Source of the DNA: Myxococcales bacterium
GTDB taxonomy: Bacteria > Myxococcota_A > Polyangia > Polyangiales > DASUME01
NCBI GenBank assembly: GCA_047601445.1
Contig: JASGJH010000001.1
Span: 192,001 to 256,000 of the forward strand
DNA length: 64,000 nt
Direction: 5' to 3'
The notes under the pieces are model-generated. The model searched no databases, had not been told where the DNA came from, and saw only the letters and a list, made by a program, of their open reading frames with translations. Below, one piece after another: positions 5,064 through 27,557 of this stretch (position 1 is the stretch's first letter; the number at the start of each line of letters is the position of its first letter). The position numbers and the translations under genes are program-made.

Positions 5064-12239
<7,176 letters not shown>

Positions 12240-13177: not shown

Positions 13178-13444
13178 ATGAGCGAAGCGCTTCATGGACC
13201 TCTCAAGCGCCTCATTGTCGATGCGCTCATGCTCGAGGACATCGAGCCAGGGGAGATCGAAGACGACGCGCCCTTATTTGGCACGGGACTGGGCCTCGAC
13301 TCGATCGACGCTCTCGAGCTGGTGATCGCCATCGATCGCAAGTTCGGGGTGAAGATCGAGGCGGAGGACGAGCGTAACAAAGAGATTTTTCGCAGCGTGA
13401 CGAGCCTGGCCAGGCACATCGCTGAGAACCAACCTCGCGGGTAA
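13178..13444 (+). CDS. Acyl carrier protein 1 (ApeE-like)
   Basis: GLGLDSIDALEL phosphopantetheine attachment motif; 88 aa, acidic. Confidence 0.92.
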   Translation: MSEALHGPLKRLIVDALMLEDIEPGEIEDDAPLFGTGLGLDSIDALELVIAIDRKFGVKIEAEDERNKEIFRSVTSLARHIAENQPRG

Positions 13445-13450
13445 AGATCG

Positions 13451-13708
13451 ATGAACAAAGAGGAGATTTACGCGCGCATTCGGCACACGCTGGAATCGAA
13501 TTTCGAGATTCCTGCCGAACGCATCACGCCCGAAGCCCGTCTGCAGGAGGACCTGGAGCTCGACAGCATCGACGCCATCGACATGGCCGTGCAGATCCAG
13601 GAGATGACGAACGTGCGGGTCGACGAGGAGGAGCTCAAGACGCTCCGCACCGTGAACGACACGGTGGAACTCGTGGTCGCGTTGCTGGCGCGGCAAGCCA
13701 ACAACTGA
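13451..13708 (+). CDS. Acyl carrier protein 2 (ApeF-like)
   Basis: DLELDSIDAIDM motif; 85 aa; tandem ACP pair typical of aryl polyene clusters. Confidence 0.92.
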   Translation: MNKEEIYARIRHTLESNFEIPAERITPEARLQEDLELDSIDAIDMAVQIQEMTNVRVDEEELKTLRTVNDTVELVVALLARQANN

Positions 13709-13738: not shown

Positions 13739-14368
13739 ATGCGCAAGCTGCTCGCGGTGTTGAACGTCGCGCTCGTGGTCGGGTATCCGCTCGCCGTGTA
13801 CTTCGGGCTCACCCGCTTCGGCGCGCGCGGTGTGTCGCTGCTGTTGCTGGCGCTGCTCTTGCCCGGCCTGCTGCAGAAGTTCGCGCGGGCTTCGCGTGAG
13901 GACCTGCGAACGGTGCTGGGCTTGCCGCTGAGCGTGTTCTGCTTGGTCGGCGCATCGGCGCTGCTCGACGATCCGCGCCTCGTGCTCGCGTTGCCGGTGC
14001 TGATCAACGTGGCCCTGCTGATCCAGTTCGGCCTCTCGCTGCGCGGCACCCCGATGGTGGAGCGCTTCGCGCGCATGCAGGACCCCAACCTCGGGCCGGC
14101 GCAGGTCGTTTACTGCCGTACGGTCACGCTCGTGTGGTGCGGCTTCTTCGTGCTCAATGCGCTGGTCAGCGGGTACCTTGCGCTGTTCGCCGAGCTCGCC
14201 AGCTGGGCGCTCTACACCGGGCTCATCGCCTATGTGCTGATGGGCGTGCTGGGCGCTTGCGAATACCTGGTGCGCAAGGCGCGCTTTCGCGAGTACGGAC
14301 CGGGCCTGCACGATCGCGTGATCGCCCGCATCTTCCCGCCGCCGGGTGCCGGCGAGGTGACGCGATGA
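13739..14368 (+). CDS. Predicted membrane protein (ApeG/COG4648-like)
   Basis: Multiple hydrophobic helices; PMVERFAR, YCRTVTLVW and WALYTGLIAYVLMG segments; position after the tandem ACPs. Confidence 0.8.
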   Translation: MRKLLAVLNVALVVGYPLAVYFGLTRFGARGVSLLLLALLLPGLLQKFARASREDLRTVLGLPLSVFCLVGASALLDDPRLVLALPVLINVALLIQFGLSLRGTPMVERFARMQDPNLGPAQVVYCRTVTLVWCGFFVLNALVSGYLALFAELASWALYTGLIAYVLMGVLGACEYLVRKARFREYGPGLHDRVIARIFPPPGAGEVTR

Positions 14369-16074
14369 GGTTGCCGCTCGCGCATCATGGAGCGCAGGAC
14401 GAGGTCTGCTTCGGCGGTGAGGGCGCGCGCACCTGCGCGCAGCTCCTGGCCTACGTCGACGCCCTTGCAGCGCGCTTGCCAGGCACGGTTTCGCAAGCCG
14501 GTGCGCGCGTGGTGCTCGCCTGCGAGGACCGCTATTTTTTCACGGCTGCCTTGCTCGCGGTGTGGCAGCGCGGGCTGACCGCCGCGTTGCCACCGAATGG
14601 ACAGGTGGAGACGGTTCGTGATCTACGCGCCATGCCAGGGGTGGTCGGGCTCCTGCACGATCGCGATGAAGACGAAGGACTCGACGTGCGCGGTCTCGAG
14701 CCCGACGCGGGTGATGTTGCGACGCTACGCCCCTACGCCGCTGGGCTCGCCGCACAGGACCCGGCGCTCGTGGTCTACACCTCGGGCAGCACGGGCCAAC
14801 CGACGCCGCACCTCAAGTCCCTGGCGCAGCTCCTGGCCGAACCTGCGATGTGGGTCGAGCACTTTGCGCTGGCTCGGCGTCGCGTGGTGAGCGCCGTGCC
14901 TGCACACCATATCTACGGGCTCTTGTTCGGTGTGCTCGCGCCGCTGCTCGGGGGCGGTGCCTTCTCGCGGCGCACGCCGGTGATGCCGGGCGAGGTGCTG
15001 CGTGAGCTTGGCGAAGCCAGGGCCCAGGTCCTGGTTGCGGTACCACCCCATTTGCGCGCGCTTTCGGCGTTCGAATGGCCCGCCCTCGAGCGCGTGTTCT
15101 CTTCGGCTGCGCCGCTGCCTGAAGCGACCGACGCGGCCCTGCTGGCCCGCGGCATCCGCGCGACCCAGGTGCTCGGATCCACCGAGACGGGCGGCATCGG
15201 CGTGCGCACGAGCTGCGCCGAGCTGTGGCGGGCGCTGCCAGGCGTGCAGCTCGAGGTCGATGACGGTGGAGCCCTGCACGTGCGCTCGCCCTGGGCCAGC
15301 GCCGAGGGCAAGACCGTGCCCACGGCGGATCGGGTCGAGCTGCGAGAGGCAGGCTTCGCGCACCTGGGGCGTACGGACAGCGTGGTAAAGGTGGGTGGGA
15401 AGCGCGTAGATTTGCGAGAAGTAGAGCTGCGGCTGTGCGCCATTCCCGGCGTGACGGACGCGCGGGTGCTGGAGGCAGGGACGCCGTCGCCGCGTGGGTC
15501 CGAGCTTTGGGCCGTGGTGGAGTGCGAGCGACCCGAGCAGCACTCGGCGCAGGGCATCAAGCAAACGCTGGGAGCGCACCTGGACTCGGTGGTCGTGCCG
15601 CGGAGGTTTCGGCTGGTGTCGGCGCTGCCGCGCGGCGCCTCGGGGAAGGTTACGCGGGCCGACTTGCTGGCTTTGTTCGAGACCTGGCACATCCCGGTGG
15701 AGGAGCTGCCCGAGGGCCGCTACCGCGCGCCCATCACGGCGGAATTGGGCTGGTTTCGCGGGCATTTCACCGGCCAGCCCATCCTCGCGGGCGTGGTGCA
15801 GATCCAGCGCATCGCCCTCAAGCAAGCCCGCAAGCGTTGGCCGGACCTCGGCGCCGTGGAGCGCGTGACCCGCGTGAAGTTCAAGCACCTGGTGAAGCCG
15901 GGCGAGGTGCTGATCCTGAGCCTTGCGCGCAAGGGCCACGGCCAGGTGACCTTTCAACTGACCACGGAGGCGAGCGCCACGAGCGCGGAGCAGCCGGTGT
16001 CCTCGGGTGTGCTTCACTTTCGCGATCCCTCGCAGCAGAGTACGGATGCGCCCGAAACGAGGAGTGTCCCATGA
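14365..16074 (+). CDS. AMP-dependent acyl-ACP synthetase fused to C-terminal hotdog dehydratase (ApeH-ApeI-like)
   Basis: YTSGSTGQP, HHIYGLLF and LGSTETGG adenylation motifs; C-terminal WFRGHFTGQPILAGVVQ; ATGA overlap with the upstream gene. Confidence 0.85.
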   Translation: MRLPLAHHGAQDEVCFGGEGARTCAQLLAYVDALAARLPGTVSQAGARVVLACEDRYFFTAALLAVWQRGLTAALPPNGQVETVRDLRAMPGVVGLLHDRDEDEGLDVRGLEPDAGDVATLRPYAAGLAAQDPALVVYTSGSTGQPTPHLKSLAQLLAEPAMWVEHFALARRRVVSAVPAHHIYGLLFGVLAPLLGGGAFSRRTPVMPGEVLRELGEARAQVLVAVPPHLRALSAFEWPALERVFSSAAPLPEATDAALLARGIRATQVLGSTETGGIGVRTSCAELWRALPGVQLEVDDGGALHVRSPWASAEGKTVPTADRVELREAGFAHLGRTDSVVKVGGKRVDLREVELRLCAIPGVTDARVLEAGTPSPRGSELWAVVECERPEQHSAQGIKQTLGAHLDSVVVPRRFRLVSALPRGASGKVTRADLLALFETWHIPVEELPEGRYRAPITAELGWFRGHFTGQPILAGVVQIQRIALKQARKRWPDLGAVERVTRVKFKHLVKPGEVLILSLARKGHGQVTFQLTTEASATSAEQPVSSGVLHFRDPSQQSTDAPETRSVP

Positions 16075-17603
16075 GTGAACGGGGAGAGCTGTGCCTGGGT
16101 GAGGAGCCGCTGCGAATCGAGCACGTGGCTCGGGCGGCTCAGGGCACGCTGCACGTGCACGTGTCGAAGCGCGGTGAGTTTCGGCACCGCATCGAGAAGG
16201 GCGCGCGCATCATCGAGCAGCGGCTCGAGCGTGGCGTGCCGACCTACGGCGTGAACACCGGCTTCGGGGCTTCGGTGAAGAACGCGGTGCCGGGCGCCCA
16301 GGCCTGGCTGCTGTCGCGCAACCTACCGCGCTATCACGGTTGCGGGGTGGGCCCGCTGTACAGCGAAGAGCAGTCGCGGGCCATCGTGTTGGTGCGCCTG
16401 GCCTCGCTGTGCGCAGGGTACTCGGGCGTGCGTCATCTGGTGCTCGAGCGGCTCGAGAAGCTGCTTCAGGCCTCGGTGGTGCCCGCCATTCCTTCGCGCG
16501 GCTCGGTCGGCGCGAGCGGGGACCTTACGCCGCTCTCCTACGTGGCCGCGCTGCTCACCGGCGAGCGCGACGCGTGGTATGAAGGGCAGGTCATCCCGGC
16601 CAGCGTGGCGCTCCAGAAGCTCGGCCTTGCGCCCATCGAGCTCGGTCCGAAGGAGAGCCTGGCCATCATGAATGGGACGTCCGTGATGGGCGCCCTGACC
16701 TGCCTCGCCTTCGACCGCGCCCAGAAGCTGGCCCGCACGGCCTCGGCGCTCACGGCGATGGCGCTCGAGGCCATCGGCGGCCAGCGCGCGCACTTCGATG
16801 CCCGCCTGTTCAAGGCCAAGGCCCACCCGGGGCAGATCCGCTGCGCCAGCTGGATCCGCGAGATTCTGAACGAGGGTGAGGTGCCGAGGTCGCGCGAGGG
16901 GCGCATTCAGGAGCGCTACTCCATCCGCTGCGCTCCCCATGTGATTGGGGCCCTGGTGGACGCGCTCGAGTTCTCGCGCGGCGTGCTCGAGACCGAGATC
17001 AACGGCGCCAGCGATAATCCCCTGGTGGATCCGGATACGGGCGACGTGCTCCATGGCGGCAACTTCTACGGCGGCCACGTGGCCATGGTGGCCGACACCC
17101 TCAAGGTGCAGGTGGCCAATCTGGCCGATTTGATGGAGCGCCAGCTGGTGTTGCTGAACGACCCCGGGCACAACGGCGGACTGCCCGAGAACCTGATCGC
17201 CGTGCGCGGCGAGGAGGCGCGTTCGCACCACGGCTTCAAGGCCATGGAGATCACCGCCAGCGCGCTCACCGCCGAGGCGCTGAAGCTGAGCATGCCCGCC
17301 AGCGTGTTCAGTCGCAGCACCGAGAACCACAACCAGGACAAGGTGAGCATGGGCTCCATCTCCGCCTTCGACTTCGAGCGCGCGGTGGAGCTGGTGGAGA
17401 GCGTGGCCGCAGTACACGCTATCGCCTGCGCCCAGGGCGTGGAGCTGCGCGGCGTGCCGCAGGTGGCGCCGCGCGTGCAGGCCTTGCATGCGGCGGTGCG
17501 CTCCAAGGTGGAGCTCACGTTGGAAGACCGTCCCATGGACCGTGACATTGAAGCGGTCACCGAGATGGTGCGTCGTGGCGCCCTGTGGGGCGGAGAGACC
17601 TGA
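16071..17603 (+). CDS. MIO-dependent aromatic amino acid ammonia-lyase (HAL/PAL/TAL family)
   Basis: YGVNTGFG, GSVGASGDL (ASG MIO triad), QERYSIRCAP, HGGNF and HNQDKVSMG; ATG at 16071 overlaps the upstream stop. Confidence 0.93.
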   Translation: MSERGELCLGEEPLRIEHVARAAQGTLHVHVSKRGEFRHRIEKGARIIEQRLERGVPTYGVNTGFGASVKNAVPGAQAWLLSRNLPRYHGCGVGPLYSEEQSRAIVLVRLASLCAGYSGVRHLVLERLEKLLQASVVPAIPSRGSVGASGDLTPLSYVAALLTGERDAWYEGQVIPASVALQKLGLAPIELGPKESLAIMNGTSVMGALTCLAFDRAQKLARTASALTAMALEAIGGQRAHFDARLFKAKAHPGQIRCASWIREILNEGEVPRSREGRIQERYSIRCAPHVIGALVDALEFSRGVLETEINGASDNPLVDPDTGDVLHGGNFYGGHVAMVADTLKVQVANLADLMERQLVLLNDPGHNGGLPENLIAVRGEEARSHHGFKAMEITASALTAEALKLSMPASVFSRSTENHNQDKVSMGSISAFDFERAVELVESVAAVHAIACAQGVELRGVPQVAPRVQALHAAVRSKVELTLEDRPMDRDIEAVTEMVRRGALWGGET

Positions 17604-18251: not shown

Positions 18252-20576
18252 GTGCGCTACGCCGCCTTCCTCGTCGCGGCGCTGGCCTGCCTGGCAATCG
18301 CCGTGTTCGGGCTCGAGGTCCGCACATCGATCACCGAATTCTTGCCGCGCGACAACCGCTCGAAGCTACTCGAGCTGGCGCGGGAGCTCTCCAATGCGCC
18401 GCAATCGCGGCTGGTGGTGATCACCGTGGGGGGCGCTTCCAGCGAGGGCTCCACACGCACGCAGAGGGCCGCGCAGCTCCGTGAGAAGCTCGAGCGTAGT
18501 GGGCTGTTCGAGTGGGTACGCGGCAGTGTGGCCAGCTCCGATCAAGAGGAAGCCTATGCGCTGTTCTATCCGGCCCGCCTCGGCCTCGCGCAGCTCCCGG
18601 GCACCACGGGACCGGTTCCGAGCAGCTGGCTAAGCGAGCGTATCCGGGCGCTCAAGGACCGCTTGGCTTCGCCGCTCGGCATGCTCGAGCGGCGCCTGGC
18701 GCCGGGGGACCCGTTGGGGCTCTTCGTGGAGTACCTGCAGCGTCAGCAGGGCGCACGCGGCAGCCTACGGGTGGAGGACGGACAACTGGTCACGGCGGAC
18801 GGGCACTGGTCGGTGTTGTTCGCAGCGACCCGCGCGCCGGCCTTCGACAGCGCGGCCCAGCGCGGCGTGGCCACGCTGCTCACGCACGAGCTGGCGACGC
18901 TCGAGCGCGCCGGCATCCAGGGCGAGTGGATCGGCGTGAACCGCTTTGCCCTCGAGGGCGAACGCTCGGTGAAGGGGGACATCGAGCGCATCTCCAGCCT
19001 GTCGCTGATCGGGATCTTCCTGCTGTACTGGTTGATCTTCCGCTCGCTGCGCGAACCGCTCCTCGTGCTTCTGCCCATCAGCTTCGGTTGCTTGCTCGCG
19101 GTGGCCGTGTGCCAGCTGTGCTTCGGCTTCGTGCACGGACTCACGCTGGCCTTCGGCTCCTCCATCATCGGCGTGGCCGAGGACTATTCGACGCACTTCT
19201 TCAGTCATCGCATCGCCGTGGGCAGCACGGAAGACAACGAGTCGCTGATGCGGCGGCTATGGCCGGGCATGTGGATGGGCGGGCTCACCACCATGGCGGG
19301 CATCGCCGCGCTCGGCGTCTCGGGCTTCCCGGGCTTGATTCAGATGGCGCTGTTCGGCGTGGTCGGCGTGCTCGGGGCGCTCCTGTGCACGCGCTACGTG
19401 CTGCCCGGGCTCTCGCGTAGGCGCGGGCGCGAGCAGCAGGGCAAGCTCGGCGCACTGGGCGAGCGGTTGGTGAAGGCGCTCTCGATTCGCCCGCTGAGCG
19501 CGTTGTGGTTCGTCGTGCCCGCGGTGTTGGTCACCGTGGTCGGCGTGCCGCGCGCGAGCTTTCGGGATGGACTCTCGAGCCTGCGCACGCCCACCGAAGC
19601 GTTGGACGCCGAGAACAAGCGCATCCAGGCGCGCCTCGGTCGCGGTGCGGGCGGGCGCATGGTGGTGGCGCTCGGCGGGACGGACCAGGAGGCCCTGGAG
19701 CGCGCCGAAGAGGCCCAGCGGCTGCTCGAGCGGGCCGGCGAGAAGGGGTTGATCGCGAGCTTTCGCGGACCGAGCGGGCTGATGCCTTCGGAGACGACGC
19801 AGCGTCTCGCACGCAGCCGCTTCGCGAACGACCCGGAGTTCACCGCGCGCCTCGACGCAGTGCTCACTGGAGAGGGCTTCGTGGCCGCCGCCTTCCAGCC
19901 CTTCTTGGACGAAGTGAGCCGCCGCGATCCCGTCTTCCTCACGCCCGAGCAGGTGCTGTCCTCCAAGCTCTCGGACCTGCTCTTGCCCTTCCGCGCCAAG
20001 CTGCCGAGTGGCATCGCGTACCTGACCCAGGTCGACACCGTGCGTTCCGCCGAACTCAGCGGTCTGTTCGCAGACGAGCCCGGGCTCTTCTACGTGGATC
20101 AGGAGGCGCTCTTCAGCCAGGCCTATGGCGAGTTCCGCGCGCGTACGCTGTGGCTCGTCGTGTCTGGGCTCGGGCTCGTGCTCTTGACGCTGTGGCTGCG
20201 CTATCGCGATCTCAAGCTGTGCTTGCTCGGAATGGTGCCTGCGGTGCTCGGTGCGGGGGCGGCGCTCGGCGCGCAGGGGTTGTGGGGGACGCCGCTGAAT
20301 CTGATGCACGTGATCGGGATGCTGCTGGTGTTGAGCATGGGCGTGGACTACGGCATCTATATGTTGGAGAGCCGGGAGAGCGTGGAGGAGGGTGTGGTGA
20401 CCCTGGGCAGCGTGCTGCTGGCGGCGCTCACCACGGTGCTCTCTTTCGGGCTGCTCGGTCTCAGCGAGAACCCGGCCCTGGCCGGCATCGGCATGACGGT
20501 GTCGCTCGGACTCGTGTTCACCGTGGTGATGAGCCCCGTGGTGTTGGTGTGGACGCAAGCCAAGAGGACCGCATGA
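18252..20576 (+). CDS. MMPL/RND-family exporter (ApeM-like)
   Basis: Two hydrophobic repeats with IIGVAEDYSTH and LSMGVDYGIY motifs; 774 aa. Confidence 0.88.
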   Translation: MRYAAFLVAALACLAIAVFGLEVRTSITEFLPRDNRSKLLELARELSNAPQSRLVVITVGGASSEGSTRTQRAAQLREKLERSGLFEWVRGSVASSDQEEAYALFYPARLGLAQLPGTTGPVPSSWLSERIRALKDRLASPLGMLERRLAPGDPLGLFVEYLQRQQGARGSLRVEDGQLVTADGHWSVLFAATRAPAFDSAAQRGVATLLTHELATLERAGIQGEWIGVNRFALEGERSVKGDIERISSLSLIGIFLLYWLIFRSLREPLLVLLPISFGCLLAVAVCQLCFGFVHGLTLAFGSSIIGVAEDYSTHFFSHRIAVGSTEDNESLMRRLWPGMWMGGLTTMAGIAALGVSGFPGLIQMALFGVVGVLGALLCTRYVLPGLSRRRGREQQGKLGALGERLVKALSIRPLSALWFVVPAVLVTVVGVPRASFRDGLSSLRTPTEALDAENKRIQARLGRGAGGRMVVALGGTDQEALERAEEAQRLLERAGEKGLIASFRGPSGLMPSETTQRLARSRFANDPEFTARLDAVLTGEGFVAAAFQPFLDEVSRRDPVFLTPEQVLSSKLSDLLLPFRAKLPSGIAYLTQVDTVRSAELSGLFADEPGLFYVDQEALFSQAYGEFRARTLWLVVSGLGLVLLTLWLRYRDLKLCLLGMVPAVLGAGAALGAQGLWGTPLNLMHVIGMLLVLSMGVDYGIYMLESRESVEEGVVTLGSVLLAALTTVLSFGLLGLSENPALAGIGMTVSLGLVFTVVMSPVVLVWTQAKRTA

Positions 20577-21196
20577 ACTTGCGACGAGGAGTGTTTGGGC
20601 TGTGGTTGTGCGGAGCGCTCGCGTGTGGCGGGGCGCGGCAGCCGAGTCCCAGCATGCCGGCGCGCGAGTACCCGGGATATCTCGCGCCGAGCGGGACGTT
20701 GGGGCGCCCCTTCGTGGTACAGCAGAGCTTGCGCGGGACCTACGGGGAGCACGACCTCTCGCTCGACGTGGTGGTGCAGCTGGCGAACGGCAAGCTCACA
20801 TTGGTGGGGCTCACGCCTTTCGGCTCACGGGCCTTCGTGCTCGAGCAAGTGGGAGAGCAGACTCACTTCGAGAAGTTCGTCGACCGCGAGATCCCGTTCG
20901 ATCCCAAGTACGTGCTCAACGACGTGCACCGCGTGTTCTTCCGCGGCCTTCCGAGCCCACAGCCCGACGGCGTGCACAGCGAGGAGCAGCACGGTGAGAA
21001 GGTCACGGAGACCTGGCGCGGAGGCTTGCTGGTGGAACGCCGCTTCGAGCGCCTGGACGGCGAGCCCAAGGGGGCGGTGATCGCGCGCTTCTCGGGGGCT
21101 GCGGCGCCGGTGATCGCGCCCGAGGTGAAGCTCGAGAACCAGTGGTTCGGCTACAGCATCGACATCGAGAGCAGCGACCAGAGCTTTTTGGAGTAG
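20573..21196 (+). CDS. DUF3261-like lipoprotein (ApeN-like)
   Basis: Lipobox ALAC; LTLVGLTPFGSRAF segment; ATGA overlap with the MMPL gene. Confidence 0.7.
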   Translation: MNLRRGVFGLWLCGALACGGARQPSPSMPAREYPGYLAPSGTLGRPFVVQQSLRGTYGEHDLSLDVVVQLANGKLTLVGLTPFGSRAFVLEQVGEQTHFEKFVDREIPFDPKYVLNDVHRVFFRGLPSPQPDGVHSEEQHGEKVTETWRGGLLVERRFERLDGEPKGAVIARFSGAAAPVIAPEVKLENQWFGYSIDIESSDQSFLE

Positions 21197-21209
21197 GTCG
21201 GCGGACGCT

Positions 21210-22022
21210 TCAATCGCGCTTGCTGAGCACCCAGAGCGCATCGTCGAGTACGTAGTAGGGAGCCTTGGAGTCGCCGCGGCTGAGGTAGGGCACACGGGCG
21301 ATGCGCTCGATGTCGAAGCCCTGTTCCTCGAGGAAGGCGCTCATCTCCACGAGCGAGAGCTTGAAGCTATCCTCGCTGATGGGCAGGCGTTCCTGGGGCG
21401 ACACGGTGGCACCTGCGACGTGCACATGGGGACGCACGGGGAGGGGCAGGGCGAGCACCAGACGAGCGCCCGGTGCGAGCATGGCGCGCAACGCTGCGAG
21501 CAGCGAGATGGGGCGTCGCGTGCGATCGAGCACGTTGAGGCAGCTGATCACGTCGAAGGGACCATGCTCGGGTAGCGGGACCTCGAGCAGGTCGTGCGCG
21601 TGCACCCGGAAGCCGCGTTCGCCCAGGCGCTTGGCCAGGGGACGCGAGGTCTCCGTGCAGGTGATGTGCTGGAACCAAGGCTTGGCGTGTTCGGTGACGT
21701 AGCCGGCGCCCGCGCCCACATCGAGCAGGGCCCTGCGTGCACCACCGGTGAGCGAGCCCCACTGGGCCTCGGACAACAGGTGCATCGCGTAGGTGGCCGT
21801 GAGCCCGTGGGCATCGTAGGCGCTCATGAAGCGCGTCAGCTGCGAGACGAGCCAGGTCTCCACCATGCTGTGGGGACGCGCCGCGACCTCGGCGAGCCAG
21901 GCCTGGGTGCCGGCGTCTGCCGCCAACGGCACGAACTTCTCGGCGTACTTACCGAGTGCCCGCCGCTCGACCTCGTAGTGGAGTTCAGGACCTTCGCCGG
22001 CCGTCCAAGACTGAGCGCTCAT
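21210..22022 (-). CDS. Class I SAM methyltransferase resembling METTL9/DREV
   Basis: LLDVGAGAG, FDVISCLNVLDR, LVLALPLP and RVPYLSRGD...YYVLDDALWVL; ATG at 22022 overlaps the halogenase stop (ATGA); 270 aa. Confidence 0.8.
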   Translation of the reverse strand: MSAQSWTAGEGPELHYEVERRALGKYAEKFVPLAADAGTQAWLAEVAARPHSMVETWLVSQLTRFMSAYDAHGLTATYAMHLLSEAQWGSLTGGARRALLDVGAGAGYVTEHAKPWFQHITCTETSRPLAKRLGERGFRVHAHDLLEVPLPEHGPFDVISCLNVLDRTRRPISLLAALRAMLAPGARLVLALPLPVRPHVHVAGATVSPQERLPISEDSFKLSLVEMSAFLEEQGFDIERIARVPYLSRGDSKAPYYVLDDALWVLSKRD

Positions 22023-23221
22023 TCCGCTGCGTACGGCTCGAAGCGGCGGCGCTTGCTGGCGAGCAACATCTTCTGGAATGGGTTGTCGTCGCGCCAGCAG
22101 TCGCCTGCCAGCGTGCTGATGAGGCCCTTGCGCAGCATGGGCTCGGGCTCTCGCGCGAAGAAGATGTGCTGCACGATGTTGGTCTGGTAGAAGGCGCCCA
22201 CCAGGCTGCCGAAGGCCGTGTAGGCCACCGCCATGTGCTCCGACACCGGTCGCGTGAGCTCCGGGTCGTTCTCGCGGCCCTCGCGCAGGGCGGGCCCCAG
22301 GATGTCCGCGAACTTCTCGCCGCCCAGCATGGCGAGCGATACGCCCGACGAGAACACCGGGTCCAGGAACAGCGCCGCGTCGCCCAGGCAAGCCCAGCGC
22401 GGTCCACGCGTCTTCACGTTGCGGTAGCTGAAGTTGCGGATGATGCGCAGCTCGGTCTTGTGGCAACCGGCGGTGAGGCGCTGCAGCATGGGCGAGGCTG
22501 CGTAGGTGTCCTCGAACAACTGGTTGCTGATGCCTTGCTTGCGGGAGACCACGCCCACGCTCACGCGCTTGCCGGCCAGCGGGATCACCCAGACCCAGCC
22601 CTGGTCCACGATCAGCACGCGGATGTTGCCCACGTGCTCGTTCGCGAGCTCGTTCCAGACCTCGTCGGAGAGGCCGTCGAAGTGACGGAACACGGCGGCC
22701 AGGCCGAAGTCCTCGATGCGGCGCATCGACTTCTCGCGGTGCGCGAGCAGCGCATCCTGACCCGTGGCATCGATCACGAAGCGTGCCTTGAGCTCCCCCT
22801 GGCTGGTCTCCAGCGTGACGCTGTCTTCGCCCGGGATCATCTGGCTCGCACGCACGCCGGTGCGCACCTCGCATCCCGCGTTGATGGCGCTGTCGAGTAC
22901 GGCTTTGTCGAACTTGGCGCGCTCCACCTGGTACGCGTAGCCGGGTGTGCCGTCGAGGCCATCCTTGAAGAGGTACTGAGCGTAGTCGCCCGTGCGCTCG
23001 TCGTAGAACTCGGCGCCACCCTTGTACAGGAAACCCAGGGCCTTCATGTCCATGCCGAGGCGCTCGAACAGCGGCAGGTCGCAGGGCAACAGCGATTCGC
23101 CGATGTGGAAGCGCGGGAACTCGTCCTTGTCGATCAGCAAGACGTCCACGCCCTGACGGGCCAACAGCGCTCCCGCGGTGGCCCCACCGGGGCCGGCACC
23201 GATGATGATGACGTCTTTCAT
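22019..23221 (-). CDS. FAD-dependent halogenase-like oxidoreductase
   Basis: GAGPGG, FPRFHIGESLLP, GWVWVIP (WxWxIP) and GDAALFLDPVFSSG. Confidence 0.85.
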   Translation of the reverse strand: MKDVIIIGAGPGGATAGALLARQGVDVLLIDKDEFPRFHIGESLLPCDLPLFERLGMDMKALGFLYKGGAEFYDERTGDYAQYLFKDGLDGTPGYAYQVERAKFDKAVLDSAINAGCEVRTGVRASQMIPGEDSVTLETSQGELKARFVIDATGQDALLAHREKSMRRIEDFGLAAVFRHFDGLSDEVWNELANEHVGNIRVLIVDQGWVWVIPLAGKRVSVGVVSRKQGISNQLFEDTYAASPMLQRLTAGCHKTELRIIRNFSYRNVKTRGPRWACLGDAALFLDPVFSSGVSLAMLGGEKFADILGPALREGRENDPELTRPVSEHMAVAYTAFGSLVGAFYQTNIVQHIFFAREPEPMLRKGLISTLAGDCWRDDNPFQKMLLASKRRRFEPYAAE

Positions 23222-24441
23222 ACCGCTCCAAAGATCAGCGAGGTGTTCATGCCACCGAACGCGAAGTTGTTGCTCATGGTGATGCGCGGCTTGGCGTCGC
23301 GCGGTTCCTTGCCCACGTAGTTGAGGGGCGCGCAGCGCGAGTCGACCTCGTCGAGCGTGCGGTTGGGCGCCACCCAGTTCTCGCGCATCATGGCGACGCA
23401 GAAGGCCGCCTCGATGGAGCCGCAGGCGCCCAACGTGTGGCCGGTGAAGCTCTTGGTGGAGCTGATGGGCACCGTCGTGCCGAGCGTGCGCGCGGTAGCC
23501 AGGCTCTCCGCGATGTCGCCGACCTCGGTGGCCGTCGCGTGCGCGTTCACGTAGTCGATGCGATCGGGGGAGAGCTGTGCGTCGGCCAGCGCGAGCTGCA
23601 TCGCGCCCGCCATGCCGTGGGCTGACGGGTTGGTGACGTGGGTGCCGTCGCAGTTGGTGCCGTAGCCGAGGATCTCGGCGTGGATGAAGGCGCCGCGGGC
23701 CTTGGCGCGCTCGTAGCTCTCGAGCACGAAGGTGCCCGCGCCCTCGCCGATCACCAGGCCGTCACGGTCCTTGTCGAAGGGACGCGGCGTAAGGTCGGGC
23801 GTGTCGTTGCGCCGCGTGGTGGCGTACATGATGTCGAAGATGGCCGTGTGGCTGTAGTGCAACTCTTCGGCGCCGCCCACGATCATCACGTCCTGCACGC
23901 CCGCGCGGATGGTCTCGTAACCCGCGCCCACCGCCTGGCTGGCGCTCACGCAGGCCGAGCACGTGGAGATCACGCGGCCGGTGATGCCGTAGTAGATGGC
24001 CAGGTTGGCCGCCGTGGTGTGGCTCATGAACTTGATGTATTCGGTGGACTGGATGCCCTGGATGCCCCGGTGCACGAAGAGCTTCCGACTCCACTCCTCG
24101 TTGGCTGCCGATGAGCCGTTGGTGCTGCCGTAGGCCACGCCTGTGCGACCGTTGGCCAGCACTTCCTCCGAGATGCCCGCGTCCGCGATGGCCTGCTCCG
24201 TGGCGTACAAACTCAGGAGCGAGACCCGACCCATGGTGCGCGTTTTCTTGCGCGGGTAGTTCAACGCGAGGTTGGTGATGGGGGCCGAGAGCCGCGTCTG
24301 CATGTGCGCGATCTCGGCGAGCTCGGGCGTGATGGCGATGCCATGCCGGTTCTCGCGCAGCGAGCTCGAGACCTCGCGCATGCTGTTTCCGATCGGGGTT
24401 GCGAGCCCGATGCCCGTGATGACCACACGCGTACGACTCAT
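23218..24441 (-). CDS. Beta-ketoacyl-ACP synthase (ApeR/FabF-like)
   Basis: SACVSA catalytic Cys; NAHATAT and TGHTLGA histidines; NNFAFGG. Confidence 0.93.
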   Translation of the reverse strand: MSRTRVVITGIGLATPIGNSMREVSSSLRENRHGIAITPELAEIAHMQTRLSAPITNLALNYPRKKTRTMGRVSLLSLYATEQAIADAGISEEVLANGRTGVAYGSTNGSSAANEEWSRKLFVHRGIQGIQSTEYIKFMSHTTAANLAIYYGITGRVISTCSACVSASQAVGAGYETIRAGVQDVMIVGGAEELHYSHTAIFDIMYATTRRNDTPDLTPRPFDKDRDGLVIGEGAGTFVLESYERAKARGAFIHAEILGYGTNCDGTHVTNPSAHGMAGAMQLALADAQLSPDRIDYVNAHATATEVGDIAESLATARTLGTTVPISSTKSFTGHTLGACGSIEAAFCVAMMRENWVAPNRTLDEVDSRCAPLNYVGKEPRDAKPRITMSNNFAFGGMNTSLIFGAV

Positions 24442-25157
24442 GCGAGGCCTCCGTTGATTCCGATGACCTGGCCGGTGATGTACGCAGCTCGAGGGCCCGC
24501 TAAAAACGCGACCAGGTCGGCGACTTCTTCCGCCTGGCCCAGGCGGCCCGCCGGAATGTGTTTCAGGATTTCTTCGATCGGTGCACCAGCGATCATGTCA
24601 GTCTCGATGAGTCCAGGAGCCACCGCGTTCACGGTGATGCGGCGCTTGGCGAGCTCCTTGGACAAAGATTTGGTCGCCCCGATCAGGCCCGCCTTGGCCG
24701 CAGCATAGTTGGTTTGGCCGCGGTTGCCGGTGACTCCCGATACGCTTGCGATGTTGATGATGCGCCCGTATTTGCGGCGCACCATGGGCATCACCAGGGG
24801 CTTGGTGACGTTGTAAAAGCCGTCCAGGGTCGTGCGGGTCACGGTGTCCCAGTCTTCCCAGCTGAGCGAGGGCAGGGGGTTGTCGCGGGCGATGCCGGCA
24901 TTGTTCACCAGGACGTCGATGGGCGCGGGATCACTCAAAAGATTCTCGAGCGCGCTCTGGGTGGCCTCCCGGTCGCGCACGTCGAAGCGCGCGAGCACGG
25001 CCTTGCCGCCCTGGGCTTCGATCTCGGCCTGGACCGCCTGGGCCTGCTCGTCCTGGGAGCGATAGTTGAGGATCACCGTGTGCCCGGCCTTCGCCAGGGC
25101 CTTGGCGATCGCTGCGCCGATTCCCCGGCTTGCCCCCGTCACCAACGCGCGATTCAC
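24438..25157 (-). CDS. fabG: 3-oxoacyl-ACP reductase (ApeQ/FabG-like)
   Basis: TGASRGIG, NNAG, YAAAK; GTG start at 25157 overlaps the upstream stop. Confidence 0.9.
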   Translation of the reverse strand: MNRALVTGASRGIGAAIAKALAKAGHTVILNYRSQDEQAQAVQAEIEAQGGKAVLARFDVRDREATQSALENLLSDPAPIDVLVNNAGIARDNPLPSLSWEDWDTVTRTTLDGFYNVTKPLVMPMVRRKYGRIINIASVSGVTGNRGQTNYAAAKAGLIGATKSLSKELAKRRITVNAVAPGLIETDMIAGAPIEEILKHIPAGRLGQAEEVADLVAFLAGPRAAYITGQVIGINGGLA

Positions 25158-25594
25158 GGAATAACTCCCCCTGGCAAGGCGCGTCGATACACGCTGAGCT
25201 GGGCCTTGGCCACCGACTGACCCTCCAGCGCCACCGAGCACTCGAAGGAAGCCAACTCGTCGTCTCCCCAGACGCGCTTCGCCTCCACCACCAGCTGGTC
25301 GCCGACCTTGAAGCTATCGACCTCGAAGGTGGCCTCCGGGATGGCGATGAGGTAGCCGGGGCGCACGTTCTGCTCTTTGCTGCGGTCGAAGATACCCACC
25401 AGGGCGCCCACCGTCTGGGCCATCCACTCGATGCTCACGACCGGCTCCACGGCGCCATCTTCCACGAAGACGTGTTCCTGGCGTATTTCGAGTGCACAGC
25501 GAATCTCGTCGCCCTCACGGAAAAGCACGCGGTCGAGCCACAGCATCGGAGCGTCGTGGGGCAAGAGCTCTTCGATCGGCAAATACGCGGTCAC
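25154..25594 (-). CDS. Hotdog-fold 3-hydroxyacyl-ACP dehydratase partner (ApeP-like)
   Basis: LLPHDAPMLWLD and IEWMAQTVG; GTG at 25594 overlaps the upstream stop. Confidence 0.85.
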   Translation of the reverse strand: MTAYLPIEELLPHDAPMLWLDRVLFREGDEIRCALEIRQEHVFVEDGAVEPVVSIEWMAQTVGALVGIFDRSKEQNVRPGYLIAIPEATFEVDSFKVGDQLVVEAKRVWGDDELASFECSVALEGQSVAKAQLSVYRRALPGGVIP

Positions 25595-26388
25595 CGCGCG
25601 ACCTCCGCCGTGGGTTCGCGCGTCGCGGGGCGCAGCGCGCGGAGCTCGACGCACCAGGGCTGAGGACCTTCGCCGAGCTGCACCGTCTCCGTTCCGGCGT
25701 TGGCCAGCGTCTGGGCGAGGAACATGGCCGGACCGAGAGGATGATTCGGACCGGCGAAGGGGTCGCGCAGGCTGCTTTGCTCGCGCGACGCGCGCTTCAG
25801 ACGCGACAGCGTGGCCCGCGGCGGGATGGTGCCCAGGGTCTGCGAAAGCACGAAGGCGACGCCGACCGGACCGTAGACATGTGCGTCGCTCAGCGAACGC
25901 GGAATCAGCTCGTCTGCGAACACCAACAAGACCCGCTTTTCTCCAGCCAAGAGTAATGCCTGAGCCTCCAGGAGGCCCATCGCAACCGTGTCCCAGCCAG
26001 CGGCAATGGCAGTAGAAGCGCGGACATTGTGGGCGCTGATGGAGAGCAGACCGGGCGCGGCGTTGTGCACGCTGTGCCGGAAACGGGCCGGCGATGAGCC
26101 GTTTTCGGAGACGGCCAGATCCATCAAGGCCTCGGCCGTACCCAGCTCACCAAAGGCCGAAGCGAATACGATGTGCAGATCCTCGGCCGACACCGCCGCG
26201 TCGTGCAGGGCGAGCTGAGCCGCGTGCATGAACAGGCGCGTGACGTCGGACAAACCCCGGCGCAGGCTGCGCTCGAGCAGGCTCAGGTCGAGCTTGGGCA
26301 GCTCAGCCGCGGGACCGTGCGGGAAGTCCGCCAGACTCTCGTAGGAACTCACGGCGCCGAAGCCCTCGATGTAGAGCGTGTCGTTCAT
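25591..26388 (-). CDS. Ketosynthase chain-length factor (ApeC-like)
   Basis: LRRGLS, FASAFGE and SPARFRHSVHNA; short KS-like protein with no recognisable catalytic Cys/His set. Confidence 0.85.
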   Translation of the reverse strand: MNDTLYIEGFGAVSSYESLADFPHGPAAELPKLDLSLLERSLRRGLSDVTRLFMHAAQLALHDAAVSAEDLHIVFASAFGELGTAEALMDLAVSENGSSPARFRHSVHNAAPGLLSISAHNVRASTAIAAGWDTVAMGLLEAQALLLAGEKRVLLVFADELIPRSLSDAHVYGPVGVAFVLSQTLGTIPPRATLSRLKRASREQSSLRDPFAGPNHPLGPAMFLAQTLANAGTETVQLGEGPQPWCVELRALRPATREPTAEVAR

Positions 26389-27557
26389 GTCGCCGCCAGA
26401 ATGAGTCCGGTGTTGCTGCCGCCGAAGGCGAAGGCGTTGCTGAGCACGACCTTCACCTTGTGGCGGGCCGGAGCGCGCACCACGTGAATTCCCAGCCCAG
26501 GATCCAGCGGCGTGGCGCCGGCGCTGGGGGGCAAGAACCCGTGCTGGATGGCGAGGGTGCAGAACGCAGCCTCAGTGGCCCCGCAGGCCCCCAGCGTGTG
26601 TCCCGTGAGGCCCTTGGTCGAGCTCACGGGCACAGCGCTGCCCAGGGTGCTCAAGATGGCGCGGCTCTCGGCCTGGTCGTTTTGCTCGGTCCCCGTGCCG
26701 TGTGCGTTTACGTAGTCCACTTGCTGGGGGGAGAGGCGCGCCTTCGCGAGCGCCGCCTGGATGGCCTCGGCTGCACCCTTGCCCTCGGGATGCGGAGCGG
26801 ACATGGAGTGCGCGTCCGAGGTCTCGCCCACGCTCGCCACGTAAGCCGGACCTTCGCCATGGCGCTCCACCAGGAGCAGGGCAGCTCCCTCGCCGATGTG
26901 GATGCCGTCGCGCTCGCTCGAGAAAGGGCGGGCTGCCTGCTTGGACAGCACGCCCAGGGAGTGAAAGCCGCGCACGGTGGTCTCGCACAGCGCGTCGGCA
27001 CCCACCACGAGCGCGGCATCGCACAGGTTGGCCTCGAGCAAGCGCGTGGCGCTCGCGATGGCTTTCACGCTGGACGTGCAGGCCGTGGAAACGGCATAGC
27101 TGGGGCCCGTGAGCTGCAGCACCCGCGCGAGCAACACGTTGAGGGCGTCGAAGGCGTGGGCGGTGCGCAGGTTGAAGCCGGCGGCGTAGGTAGAGGTCTT
27201 GCGGAAGTGGCGGTGAGCGAGCTCGGTGGCATCGAGGCCGCCCGTGCTGGTGCCCACCAGGATGGCGACCCGGTCGGCGCCCCAGCGCTGACGAGCGCGC
27301 GCGACGGCGGCGCTCACCTGAGGTAGCGCACGCATCACGATGCGGGCGAGTCGCGAGTCGAACTCACGGTCGGCCGCGGGCAACGCATCGAGCGGACCTT
27401 GCACGGCGCCGCAGACGGTCTCGAATGGGAGCTCGAAGGGCGGCGGCGACGTGCGCGGGCGTCCTTCGAGCAGAGCCGTCCACACCGCGTCGACCGAATC
27501 GCCGAGCGCGTTCGAGAGCCCCATCGCGGTGATGATGTGCCGCCGTTCCGCGAGCAT
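26385..27557 (-). CDS. Beta-ketoacyl-ACP synthase (ApeO-like)
   Basis: STACTSS, NAHGTGT, TGHTLGA and SNAFAFGG; ATG 27557 (alternative GTG 27578). Confidence 0.93.
   Translation of the reverse strand: MLAERRHIITAMGLSNALGDSVDAVWTALLEGRPRTSPPPFELPFETVCGAVQGPLDALPAADREFDSRLARIVMRALPQVSAAVARARQRWGADRVAILVGTSTGGLDATELAHRHFRKTSTYAAGFNLRTAHAFDALNVLLARVLQLTGPSYAVSTACTSSVKAIASATRLLEANLCDAALVVGADALCETTVRGFHSLGVLSKQAARPFSSERDGIHIGEGAALLLVERHGEGPAYVASVGETSDAHSMSAPHPEGKGAAEAIQAALAKARLSPQQVDYVNAHGTGTEQNDQAESRAILSTLGSAVPVSSTKGLTGHTLGACGATEAAFCTLAIQHGFLPPSAGATPLDPGLGIHVVRAPARHKVKVVLSNAFAFGGSNTGLILAAT

What the first reader, a model, noticed from the sequence alone, without database searches (positions are those of the whole stretch)
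21210..22022. Bacterial METTL9/DREV-like methyltransferase embedded in a polyene biosynthetic operon
Seen: a 270-aa ORF hidden in the 3' part of the 673-aa track ORF, coupled by ATGA to the halogenase and ending the KS-CLF-DH-KR-KS-halogenase operon. Beyond the SAM motif it has DAGTQAWL, FMS..AHGL...MHLLS, FDVISCLNVLDR..P..LL, LVLALPLP and RVPYL..GD...YYVLDDALWVL. From memory these track human METTL9 (DQGTQIFL, YDVISCLNLLDRCDQP, RLPYLCEGD..YYVLDDAVFVL) along its whole length. Established: METTL9 is a eukaryotic protein-histidine N1(pi) methyltransferase. Inference: here it may replace the usual ApeB-type methyltransferase and act on a small molecule. With the MIO lyase in the cluster, an N-methyl-imidazole (urocanate-primed) polyene is a testable, speculative possibility.
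Basis: partly seen in the sequence, partly recalled or inferred. Interest (0 to 1): 0.85.

Follow-up and report, generated by a model that had tools for sequence, protein, structure and literature searches.

The report
Bacterial relative of histidine methyltransferase METTL9
This gene is a true bacterial relative of METTL9, the animal enzyme that methylates histidines in proteins, and most likely does a similar job; its place at the end of a pigment-type biosynthetic operon looks local to a few related genomes rather than a sign that it builds the pigment.

Summary
The ORF (21210-22022, minus strand, 270 aa), its motifs and the ATGA overlap are real. It is a full-length DREV/METTL9 homologue (Pfam 7.9e-42; predicted fold TM 0.86 to human METTL9, next family at most 0.53). 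The catalytic and upstream-histidine pockets are kept; the residues that read the middle 'x' and the peptide backbone are changed. Only 3 of 78 other homologue loci carry cluster genes, all in this genus. Six of 9 genus relatives have the same cluster without the gene at that slot. In a phylum sample, 8 of 14 carriers lack the cluster's ketosynthase and 42 of 48 ketosynthase carriers lack the gene. The MIO lyase has Gln where histidine lyases have Glu, so a urocanate starter is unlikely. Best reading (0.55): a Polyangiales protein/peptide histidine N1-methyltransferase with shifted specificity; His-rich tracts of NuoL, NikR, UreE and a thioredoxin are candidates. Activity is untested. Whether eukaryotic METTL9 came from these bacteria is unresolved. 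This scan found the same family before on another genome (e1-3225309).

The parts
21210..22022 (-). METTL9/DREV-family SAM-dependent methyltransferase, 270 aa (P0001); the subject of the finding
22019..22022 (-). ATGA overlap between the stop of the halogenase-like gene and the start of the methyltransferase
21197..21209 (.). 13-bp gap where the two convergent halves of the cluster meet; in relatives this slot holds varying genes
22019..23221 (-). FAD-dependent oxidoreductase, halogenase-like (400 aa)
   Evidence: Pfam Trp_halogenase 1.8e-27; below NCBIfam cut-offs
23218..24441 (-). Ketosynthase (PRK09116 type, over its cut-off)
24438..25157 (-). Ketoreductase (short-chain dehydrogenase)
25154..25594 (-). 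ApeP-like dehydratase
25591..26388 (-). Chain-length-factor-like ketosynthase partner
   Evidence: Ketoacyl-synt_2 4.5e-30
26385..27557 (-). Ketosynthase (PRK09185 type, over its cut-off); first gene of the minus-strand operon
13178..13444 (+). Acyl carrier protein 1
   Evidence: PP-binding
13451..13708 (+). Acyl carrier protein 2
   Evidence: PP-binding
13739..14368 (+). Hydrophobic protein at the position of ApeG; no family match, label by position only
14365..16074 (+). AMP ligase fused to an ApeI-like dehydratase; best NCBIfam model is 4-coumarate-CoA ligase, below cut-off
16071..17603 (+). MIO aromatic amino-acid ammonia-lyase with Tyr-His at motif 1 and Gln at motif 2 (TAL/PAL-type at motif 2); the only MIO lyase found in this genome
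17603..18250 (+). LolA-like carrier
18252..20576 (+). MMPL/RND transporter
20573..21196 (+). DUF3261 protein (ApeN-like), convergent on the methyltransferase

Best explanation
A single-copy cytoplasmic METTL9 orthologue of Polyangiales (myxobacteria) that methylates N1 (pi) of a histidine in His-rich protein or peptide tracts. Shown by sequence and model: SAM site (D101, G103, E124, N163, Y246), catalytic pocket (N163, D166, R167, Y246; P193 for human V241) and upstream-His cleft (M80, Y246, S248, Y257, L259) plus D251. Inferred from human METTL9: D166 bonds the far ring nitrogen and so presents N1 to SAM, the histidine two residues upstream docks in the cleft, and methylation weakens metal binding of the tract. 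The changed x-pocket probably shifts the preferred middle and flanking residues. Candidate substrates in this genome (inferred): His tracts of NuoL, NikR, UreE, a thioredoxin and cytochrome oxidase subunit III. The gene is co-transcribed with an aryl-polyene-type operon in one part of the genus because it sits in a slot that takes up varying genes.
For: DREV 7.9e-42 full length. Human METTL9 is the best solved match by sequence (2e-29) and fold (TM 0.86-0.87; Ostreococcus 0.84; other families at most 0.53). Residues whose mutation abolished binding or activity in PMC10073072 (E174, D213, Y295, D300, Y306, L308) are identical. Among 65 bacterial rows D213, R214, Y295, L308 and E174 are invariant, D300 52, M126 48, Y306 47. 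The pocket for the second, non-methylated histidine (Y295, M126, C297, L308) is kept, which a lone imidazole substrate would not need. Present in 9 of 9 genus relatives and 28 of 61 near genomes, one full-length copy each. Neighbourhoods vary; the commonest neighbour is Fe/Mn superoxide dismutase (17 of 69 loci). The genome encodes H[ANGST]H tracts (605 motifs against 477-483 in shuffles).
Against: The x-pocket residues R114, N118, R123 are A68, H72, T77; T115, G124, D156, V241, Y247, E249 are Y69, Y78, A106, P193, H199, H201. In human METTL9, N118A, R123A and E249A abolish peptide binding and D156A abolishes SAH binding. R123 is not among the five commonest residues in 65 bacterial rows, and G124 is aromatic in 64 of 65. 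No activity data. HxH loops in NuoL go with the gene in raw counts (13 of 20 against 2 of 14 with two or more motifs), but independent pairs give p = 1. The operon linkage has lasted in 4 genomes.
Confidence: 0.55

Rival explanations
1. An imidazole N1-methyltransferase for a small molecule or short peptide (a histidine derivative or dipeptide), unrelated to the polyene cluster.
For: The catalytic pocket is invariant while backbone-anchoring residues are lost and bulky Y69, Y78, H72 appear, which could close the groove (inference). CARNMT1 uses the same Asp-lined pocket and acts on carnosine as well as on proteins. The next fold matches after METTL9 include ovothiol N-methyltransferases OvoM/OvsM.
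Against: OvoM/OvsM match only at TM about 0.5 and 12-17% identity; TIGR04345 scores 25.7 against a cut-off of 170. The upstream-His cleft and D251 are kept. No recurring biosynthetic neighbours in 69 loci.
Confidence: 0.18
2. Recruited to the aryl-polyene-type pathway in this lineage, in place of ApeB, methylating the aryl head or an ACP-bound intermediate, in cis here and in trans elsewhere.
For: Last gene of the operon in G000 (ATGA overlap), G007, G004 and G001, a few bases after the upstream stop. No other methyltransferase was recognised in the cluster; E. coli's cluster has ApeB. Among 61 near relatives: 22 have gene and KS, 6 gene only, 3 KS only, 30 neither. The linked copies group together in the gene tree (99/96).
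Against: 3 of 78 other loci carry cluster genes. Six of 9 genus relatives have other genes or nothing at the slot. In 301 genomes of the phylum 8 of 14 carriers have no match to the KS and 42 of 48 KS carriers lack the gene. Linked and unlinked copies differ fixedly at only 5 positions, none a mapped pocket residue. G001 keeps the gene although halogenase-like, KR, CLF and first KS genes are missing from that locus. The pocket is built for an imidazole nitrogen.
Confidence: 0.14
3. The MIO lyase makes urocanate, which primes an N-methyl-imidazole polyene finished by this enzyme.
For: P. putida HAL is the top solved match of the lyase (2.5e-78) and HAL models score highest in NCBIfam, though under cut-off. 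A histidine N-methyltransferase pocket would suit an imidazole.
Against: Motif 2 is Gln in all 6 cluster-lyase copies where it could be read (G000, G007, G008, G006, G001, G009), and Glu in the 4 unlinked paralogues; PMC3992019 gives Glu for HAL and Gln for TAL/PAL, and its flexirubin lyase FlxA, HAL-like at motif 1 and TAL-like at motif 2, took tyrosine and not histidine. The ligase's best model is 4-coumarate-CoA ligase. G002 and G003 have the cluster without a lyase between ligase and LolA.
Confidence: 0.03

Closest known systems
Human METTL9 (protein-L-histidine N-pros-methyltransferase; PDB 8GZE, 7YF2)
   Same: Whole DREV domain, 32-33% identity, TM 0.86-0.87; SAM residues, catalytic Asp, upstream-His cleft, D300/Y306/L308 equivalents.
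   Different: Bacterial and shorter at the N-terminus (270 against 318 aa, no counterpart of the signal peptide region). x-pocket R114/N118/R123 and T115, G124, D156, V241, Y247, E249 are replaced. Lies in an operon.
Ostreococcus tauri METTL9 (PDB 8BVI)
   Same: E 2.4e-26, TM 0.84; Ser in place of C297 and no Arg at 114, as here. It is an active orthologue with shifted specificity.
   Different: It keeps the N118, R123 and G124 equivalents, which P0001 lacks.
Ovothiol/ovoselenol N-methyltransferases OvoM, OvsM, OvoA C-terminal domain
   Same: Bacterial class I methyltransferases that act on a histidine derivative; first non-METTL9 fold matches.
   Different: TM about 0.5, 12-17% identity; TIGR04345 far below cut-off.
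Aryl polyene (APE) / flexirubin-type clusters
   Same: Two ACPs, AMP ligase, ApeI/ApeP dehydratases, KS, CLF, KR, LolA, RND transporter, DUF3261; a MIO lyase as in flexirubin.
   Different: Split into two convergent operons; has a halogenase-like gene; no ApeB-type methyltransferase, thioesterase, ApeD or ApeJ equivalent recognised in this copy, though other genus members carry ApeD- and ApeJ-like ORFs (read by eye).

Membership tests
METTL9/DREV (PF05219) | Full-length match to the DREV profile above generic methyltransferase models | tested here: met
   143.6 bits (cut-off 26), positions 2-265 of 265; Methyltransf_23 51.3 bits
METTL9/DREV (PF05219) | METTL9 fold with N-terminal helices and long beta6/beta7 | tested here: met
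   model pLDDT 92.6; TM 0.86-0.87 to human METTL9
METTL9/DREV (PF05219) | SAM-binding residues D151, G153, E174, L209, N210, Y295 | tested here: met
   D101, G103, E124, L162, N163, Y246; D156 is Ala
METTL9/DREV (PF05219) | Target-histidine pocket N210, D213, R214, V241, Y295 | tested here: met
   4 of 5 identical, V241 is Pro
METTL9/DREV (PF05219) | Pocket for His at i-2: M126, Y295, C297, Y306, L308; D300 for the backbone | tested here: met
   M80, Y246, S248 (Ser as in Ostreococcus), Y257, L259, D251
METTL9/DREV (PF05219) | x-pocket and backbone anchors R114, N118, R123 (with Y247, E249) | tested here: not met
   A68, H72, T77, H199, H201; R123 is also found in only 27 of 51 eukaryote-like rows
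METTL9/DREV (PF05219) | N1-methylation of His in HxH motifs of proteins | not testable with these tools
   needs an enzyme assay
APE tailoring methyltransferase (ApeB role) | Stable association with the APE cluster across genomes | tested here: not met
   3 of 78 other loci; absent from the slot in 6 of 9 genus relatives; 42 of 48 KS carriers lack it
APE tailoring methyltransferase (ApeB role) | Sequence relationship to ApeB itself | not tested
   no ApeB sequence was fetched; only its role was read
Histidine ammonia-lyase (for the cluster's MIO lyase) | Glu at motif 2 | tested here: not met
   Gln in the alignment to P. putida HAL and in 6 of 6 readable cluster copies; rule from the Fig. S1 legend of PMC3992019
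Ovothiol N-methyltransferase (OvoM/OvoA C-term) | Score over TIGR04345 cut-off and close fold match | tested here: not met
   25.7 against 170 bits; TM about 0.5

The most novel reading that the evidence does not exclude
Polyangiales have their own protein-histidine N1 methylation, tuning the metal affinity of His-rich tracts, including a loop of complex I subunit NuoL that would parallel human NDUFB3. Eukaryotic METTL9 would descend from this myxobacterial radiation: the free trees place eukaryotes as one clade among the bacterial rows, although a bacterial clade is not rejected (p-AU 0.20).
Probability: 0.2. Interest if true: 0.8.

Novelty: new variant of a known kind. Interest (0 to 1): 0.5.

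Why it matters
The papers read describe METTL9 orthologues in eukaryotes only, and my searches showed no paper on a bacterial member. An active bacterial clade would be a candidate for enzyme-made protein histidine methylation in bacteria, a small natural variant set for studying how the HxH code is read, and a test case for gene sharing between myxobacteria and early eukaryotes. It is directly testable with one recombinant protein and a peptide array.

Tried and rejected
Metagenome scan with P0001 alone: 6 loci, all partial generic matches, no close relative. Fused forms: one longer hit, a Symbiodinium METTL9; weak evidence of no fusions. NuoL His-loop as a co-evolution signal: raw 13 of 20 against 2 of 14, 4 of 11 outside the genus; loops unreadable in 15 of 49 genomes; independent pairs p = 1; treated as inconclusive. 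Rooting with generic methyltransferases: long branches, careful search unfinished, AU test undecided. Placing G001's gene with its species group was not rejected (p-AU 0.10), so transfer or paralogy within the genus is not shown. Promoter/terminator scan: nothing above chance. RNA runs: no RNA holder listed. Complex prediction of the enzyme with a His-rich tail was not available, so peptide docking remains open. Urocanase not found in this genome; this says little about a secondary pathway. Generic SDR hits (L005, L014, L145) and an NRPS (L042) near homologues were not counted as cluster genes. The 673-aa ORF was rejected as the gene: its 5' part overlaps the halogenase-like gene in another frame and has no family match.

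Full report
OBSERVATION. The minus strand of 21210-22022 gives an open 270-aa protein, the 3' end of a 673-aa TTG ORF. Its ATG overlaps the stop of the upstream FAD-dependent gene as ATGA. It ends a minus-strand operon KS, CLF, ApeP-like DH, KR, KS, halogenase-like. That operon converges, across 13 bp, on a plus-strand operon of two ACPs, a membrane protein, AMP ligase-dehydratase, MIO lyase, LolA, MMPL and DUF3261. The gene set resembles the E. coli aryl polyene cluster (table seen).

FAMILY. Pfam DREV scores 7.9e-42 over the whole profile; generic models score 1.5e-13 or worse. The best solved relatives are human METTL9 (2e-29) and Ostreococcus METTL9 (2.4e-26); the next is at 0.002. The predicted model (pLDDT 92.6) matches human METTL9 at TM 0.86-0.87 and nothing outside the family above 0.53.

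ACTIVE SITE. I mapped human residues through the alignment and counted them in 65 bacterial and 51 eukaryote-like rows. Kept: D151, G153, E174, N210, D213, R214, Y295, M126, D300, Y306, L308; C297 is Ser, as in the active Ostreococcus enzyme. These include the target-His pocket and the cleft for the histidine two residues upstream. Changed: R114, N118, R123 (the x-pocket), T115, G124, D156, V241, Y247, E249. Alanine mutants at N118, R123 and E249 lose peptide binding in the human enzyme, so this counts against a plain copy of human specificity. G124 contacts the peptide through its main chain, so Tyr there need not block it. N118 is kept in 46 of 65 bacterial rows, R114 is mostly Asp (47), and G124 is aromatic in 64.

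DISTRIBUTION. The gene is in 9 of 9 genus relatives and 28 of 61 near genomes, one full-length copy each. In a draw of 301 genomes of the phylum it is in 14, all of the same order, and in 0 of 14 control genomes. Named loci are mostly Polyangiales/Myxococcota, with two gammaproteobacterial records, one being Stenotrophobium rhamnosiphilum, that nest among them.

LINK TO THE CLUSTER. tblastn with the window's cluster proteins found cluster genes in 3 of 78 distinct other loci (61 with at least 3 kb upstream, 52 with 3 kb on both sides), all in this genus: G007, G004, G001. In G008 and G009 the slot after the halogenase-like gene holds a START-domain gene, in G005 MarR and a ferredoxin-like ORF, in G003 two ORFs (one rhodanese-like), in G006 about 10 kb of other genes, in G002 nothing. 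Their methyltransferase genes lie elsewhere. Outside the genus the commonest neighbour is Fe/Mn superoxide dismutase (17 of 69 loci, 14 directly upstream and divergent), with succinate dehydrogenase, PhoX or a 2-hydroxyacid dehydrogenase nearby. Four linked and five unlinked copies differ fixedly at 5 positions, none a mapped pocket residue. For the link: KS and NuoL trees put G001 with G008/G009, so the linked state spans two species groups. Among 61 near relatives gene and KS co-occur (22 both, 6 gene only, 3 KS only, 30 neither), though kin are not independent. Phylum-wide this breaks down: 6 both, 8 gene only, 42 KS only (only six candidates per genome were scored).

LYASE. Against P. putida HAL the lyase has Tyr-His for Ser-His at motif 1 and Gln for Glu at motif 2. 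All 6 readable cluster copies have Gln; 4 unlinked paralogues have Glu. PMC3992019 gives Glu for HAL and Gln for TAL/PAL, and showed that FlxA uses tyrosine and not histidine. The ligase scores best, below cut-off, with 4-coumarate-CoA ligase. A coumarate or cinnamate starter is the likelier reading (inference).

MECHANISM. Most likely (0.55) the enzyme binds SAM and a His-rich tract, D166 fixes the ring of the target histidine, and N1 is methylated, lowering metal affinity as reported for a zinc-transporter peptide (passage). This genome has 605 H[ANGST]H motifs in 533 of 7507 called ORFs (shuffles 477-483), richest in NuoL (7), a thioredoxin tail (6), NikR (6) and UreE (5). These are candidates only; the NuoL test was inconclusive. 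No protein of the cluster has a His tract; the lyase and LolA have one isolated H-x-H each. Rivals: small-molecule imidazole methyltransferase (0.18), recruitment to the polyene pathway (0.14), urocanate-primed polyene (0.03); about 0.1 is left for other acceptors.

EVOLUTION. In a 206-row fast tree a 51-row clade (support 98) holds the 7 rows that look-ups named as eukaryotic: hagfish, cricket, Aphanomyces, Rhodelphis, Telonema, a Bigelowiella cluster, Lapot. The other 44 are eukaryote-like by placement only. A cluster with a Euglena transcript falls just outside. With generic methyltransferases as outgroup, eukaryotes form one clade within an unresolved bacterial base, but a bacterial clade is not rejected (p-AU 0.20). 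The direction of transfer is open.

LITERATURE SEEN. Whole text: PMC10073072. Sections and passages: PMC12269839, PMC10308197. Passages: PMC7873184, PMC3992019 (the alignment figure itself not seen), PMC8253772, PMC8446795, PMC8662637, PMC11514484. Abstract: PMC13125359. Searches showed no paper on a bacterial METTL9; the library lacks most subscription papers. The six supplement files of PMC7873184 held as text do not mention bacteria, but its Supplementary Fig. 1 on orthologue distribution was not seen.

VERDICT. Real and correctly assigned; a bacterial variant of a known enzyme family with untested activity. The operon position is a local feature of part of one genus. Interest 0.5.

Noticed in passing
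window 5064-12197 (-): A two-module NRPS with thioesterase lies next to the cluster; in G007 the two flanking genes are adjacent without it, so it looks like an insertion here or a loss there.
   Followed up: partly
window 14365-17603 against L130, L132, L136, L137: The genus carries variants of the cluster: G001 and G006 have glycosyltransferase/acyltransferase-like ORFs between ligase and lyase (read by eye), G002 and G003 have them but no lyase there, G000, G007, G004 and G008 have the lyase directly after the ligase.
   Followed up: partly
L098 (G001:C198:235-4475): In G001 the minus-strand operon is reduced to dehydratase, ketosynthase and the methyltransferase; a second, more distant KR-halogenase-KS-CLF-DH set lies on another contig (L131).
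   Followed up: partly
L142:1340-4042 (G000:C1:2720339-2723041): NuoL is about 900 aa here, with a His/Asp-rich loop of variable length across the order and a long extra C-terminal part.
   Followed up: partly
L009, L016, L034 and others: In Polyangiaceae-labelled loci the gene is divergent from Fe/Mn superoxide dismutase, in six loci followed by sdhCAB; a shared control region tied to oxidative or metal stress is possible but untested.
   Followed up: no
L014:10001-10720 and L018: Two gammaproteobacterial copies nest among myxobacterial ones and have Asp at the M126 position; the Stenotrophobium copy also lacks the D300 equivalent.
   Followed up: no
P0169 cluster; P0238, P0263, P0194: A Euglena transcript clusters with a bacterial-type row, and Rhodelphis, Telonema and Bigelowiella rows branch at the base of the eukaryote-like clade; intermediates, later transfers or contamination.
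   Followed up: no
L049:10001-10724: One homologue is split into two reading frames near residue 125, a frameshift or an assembly error.
   Followed up: no
G000 whole genome: Only one MIO lyase and no urocanase match were found, whereas several genus relatives have a second, Glu-type lyase.
   Followed up: partly
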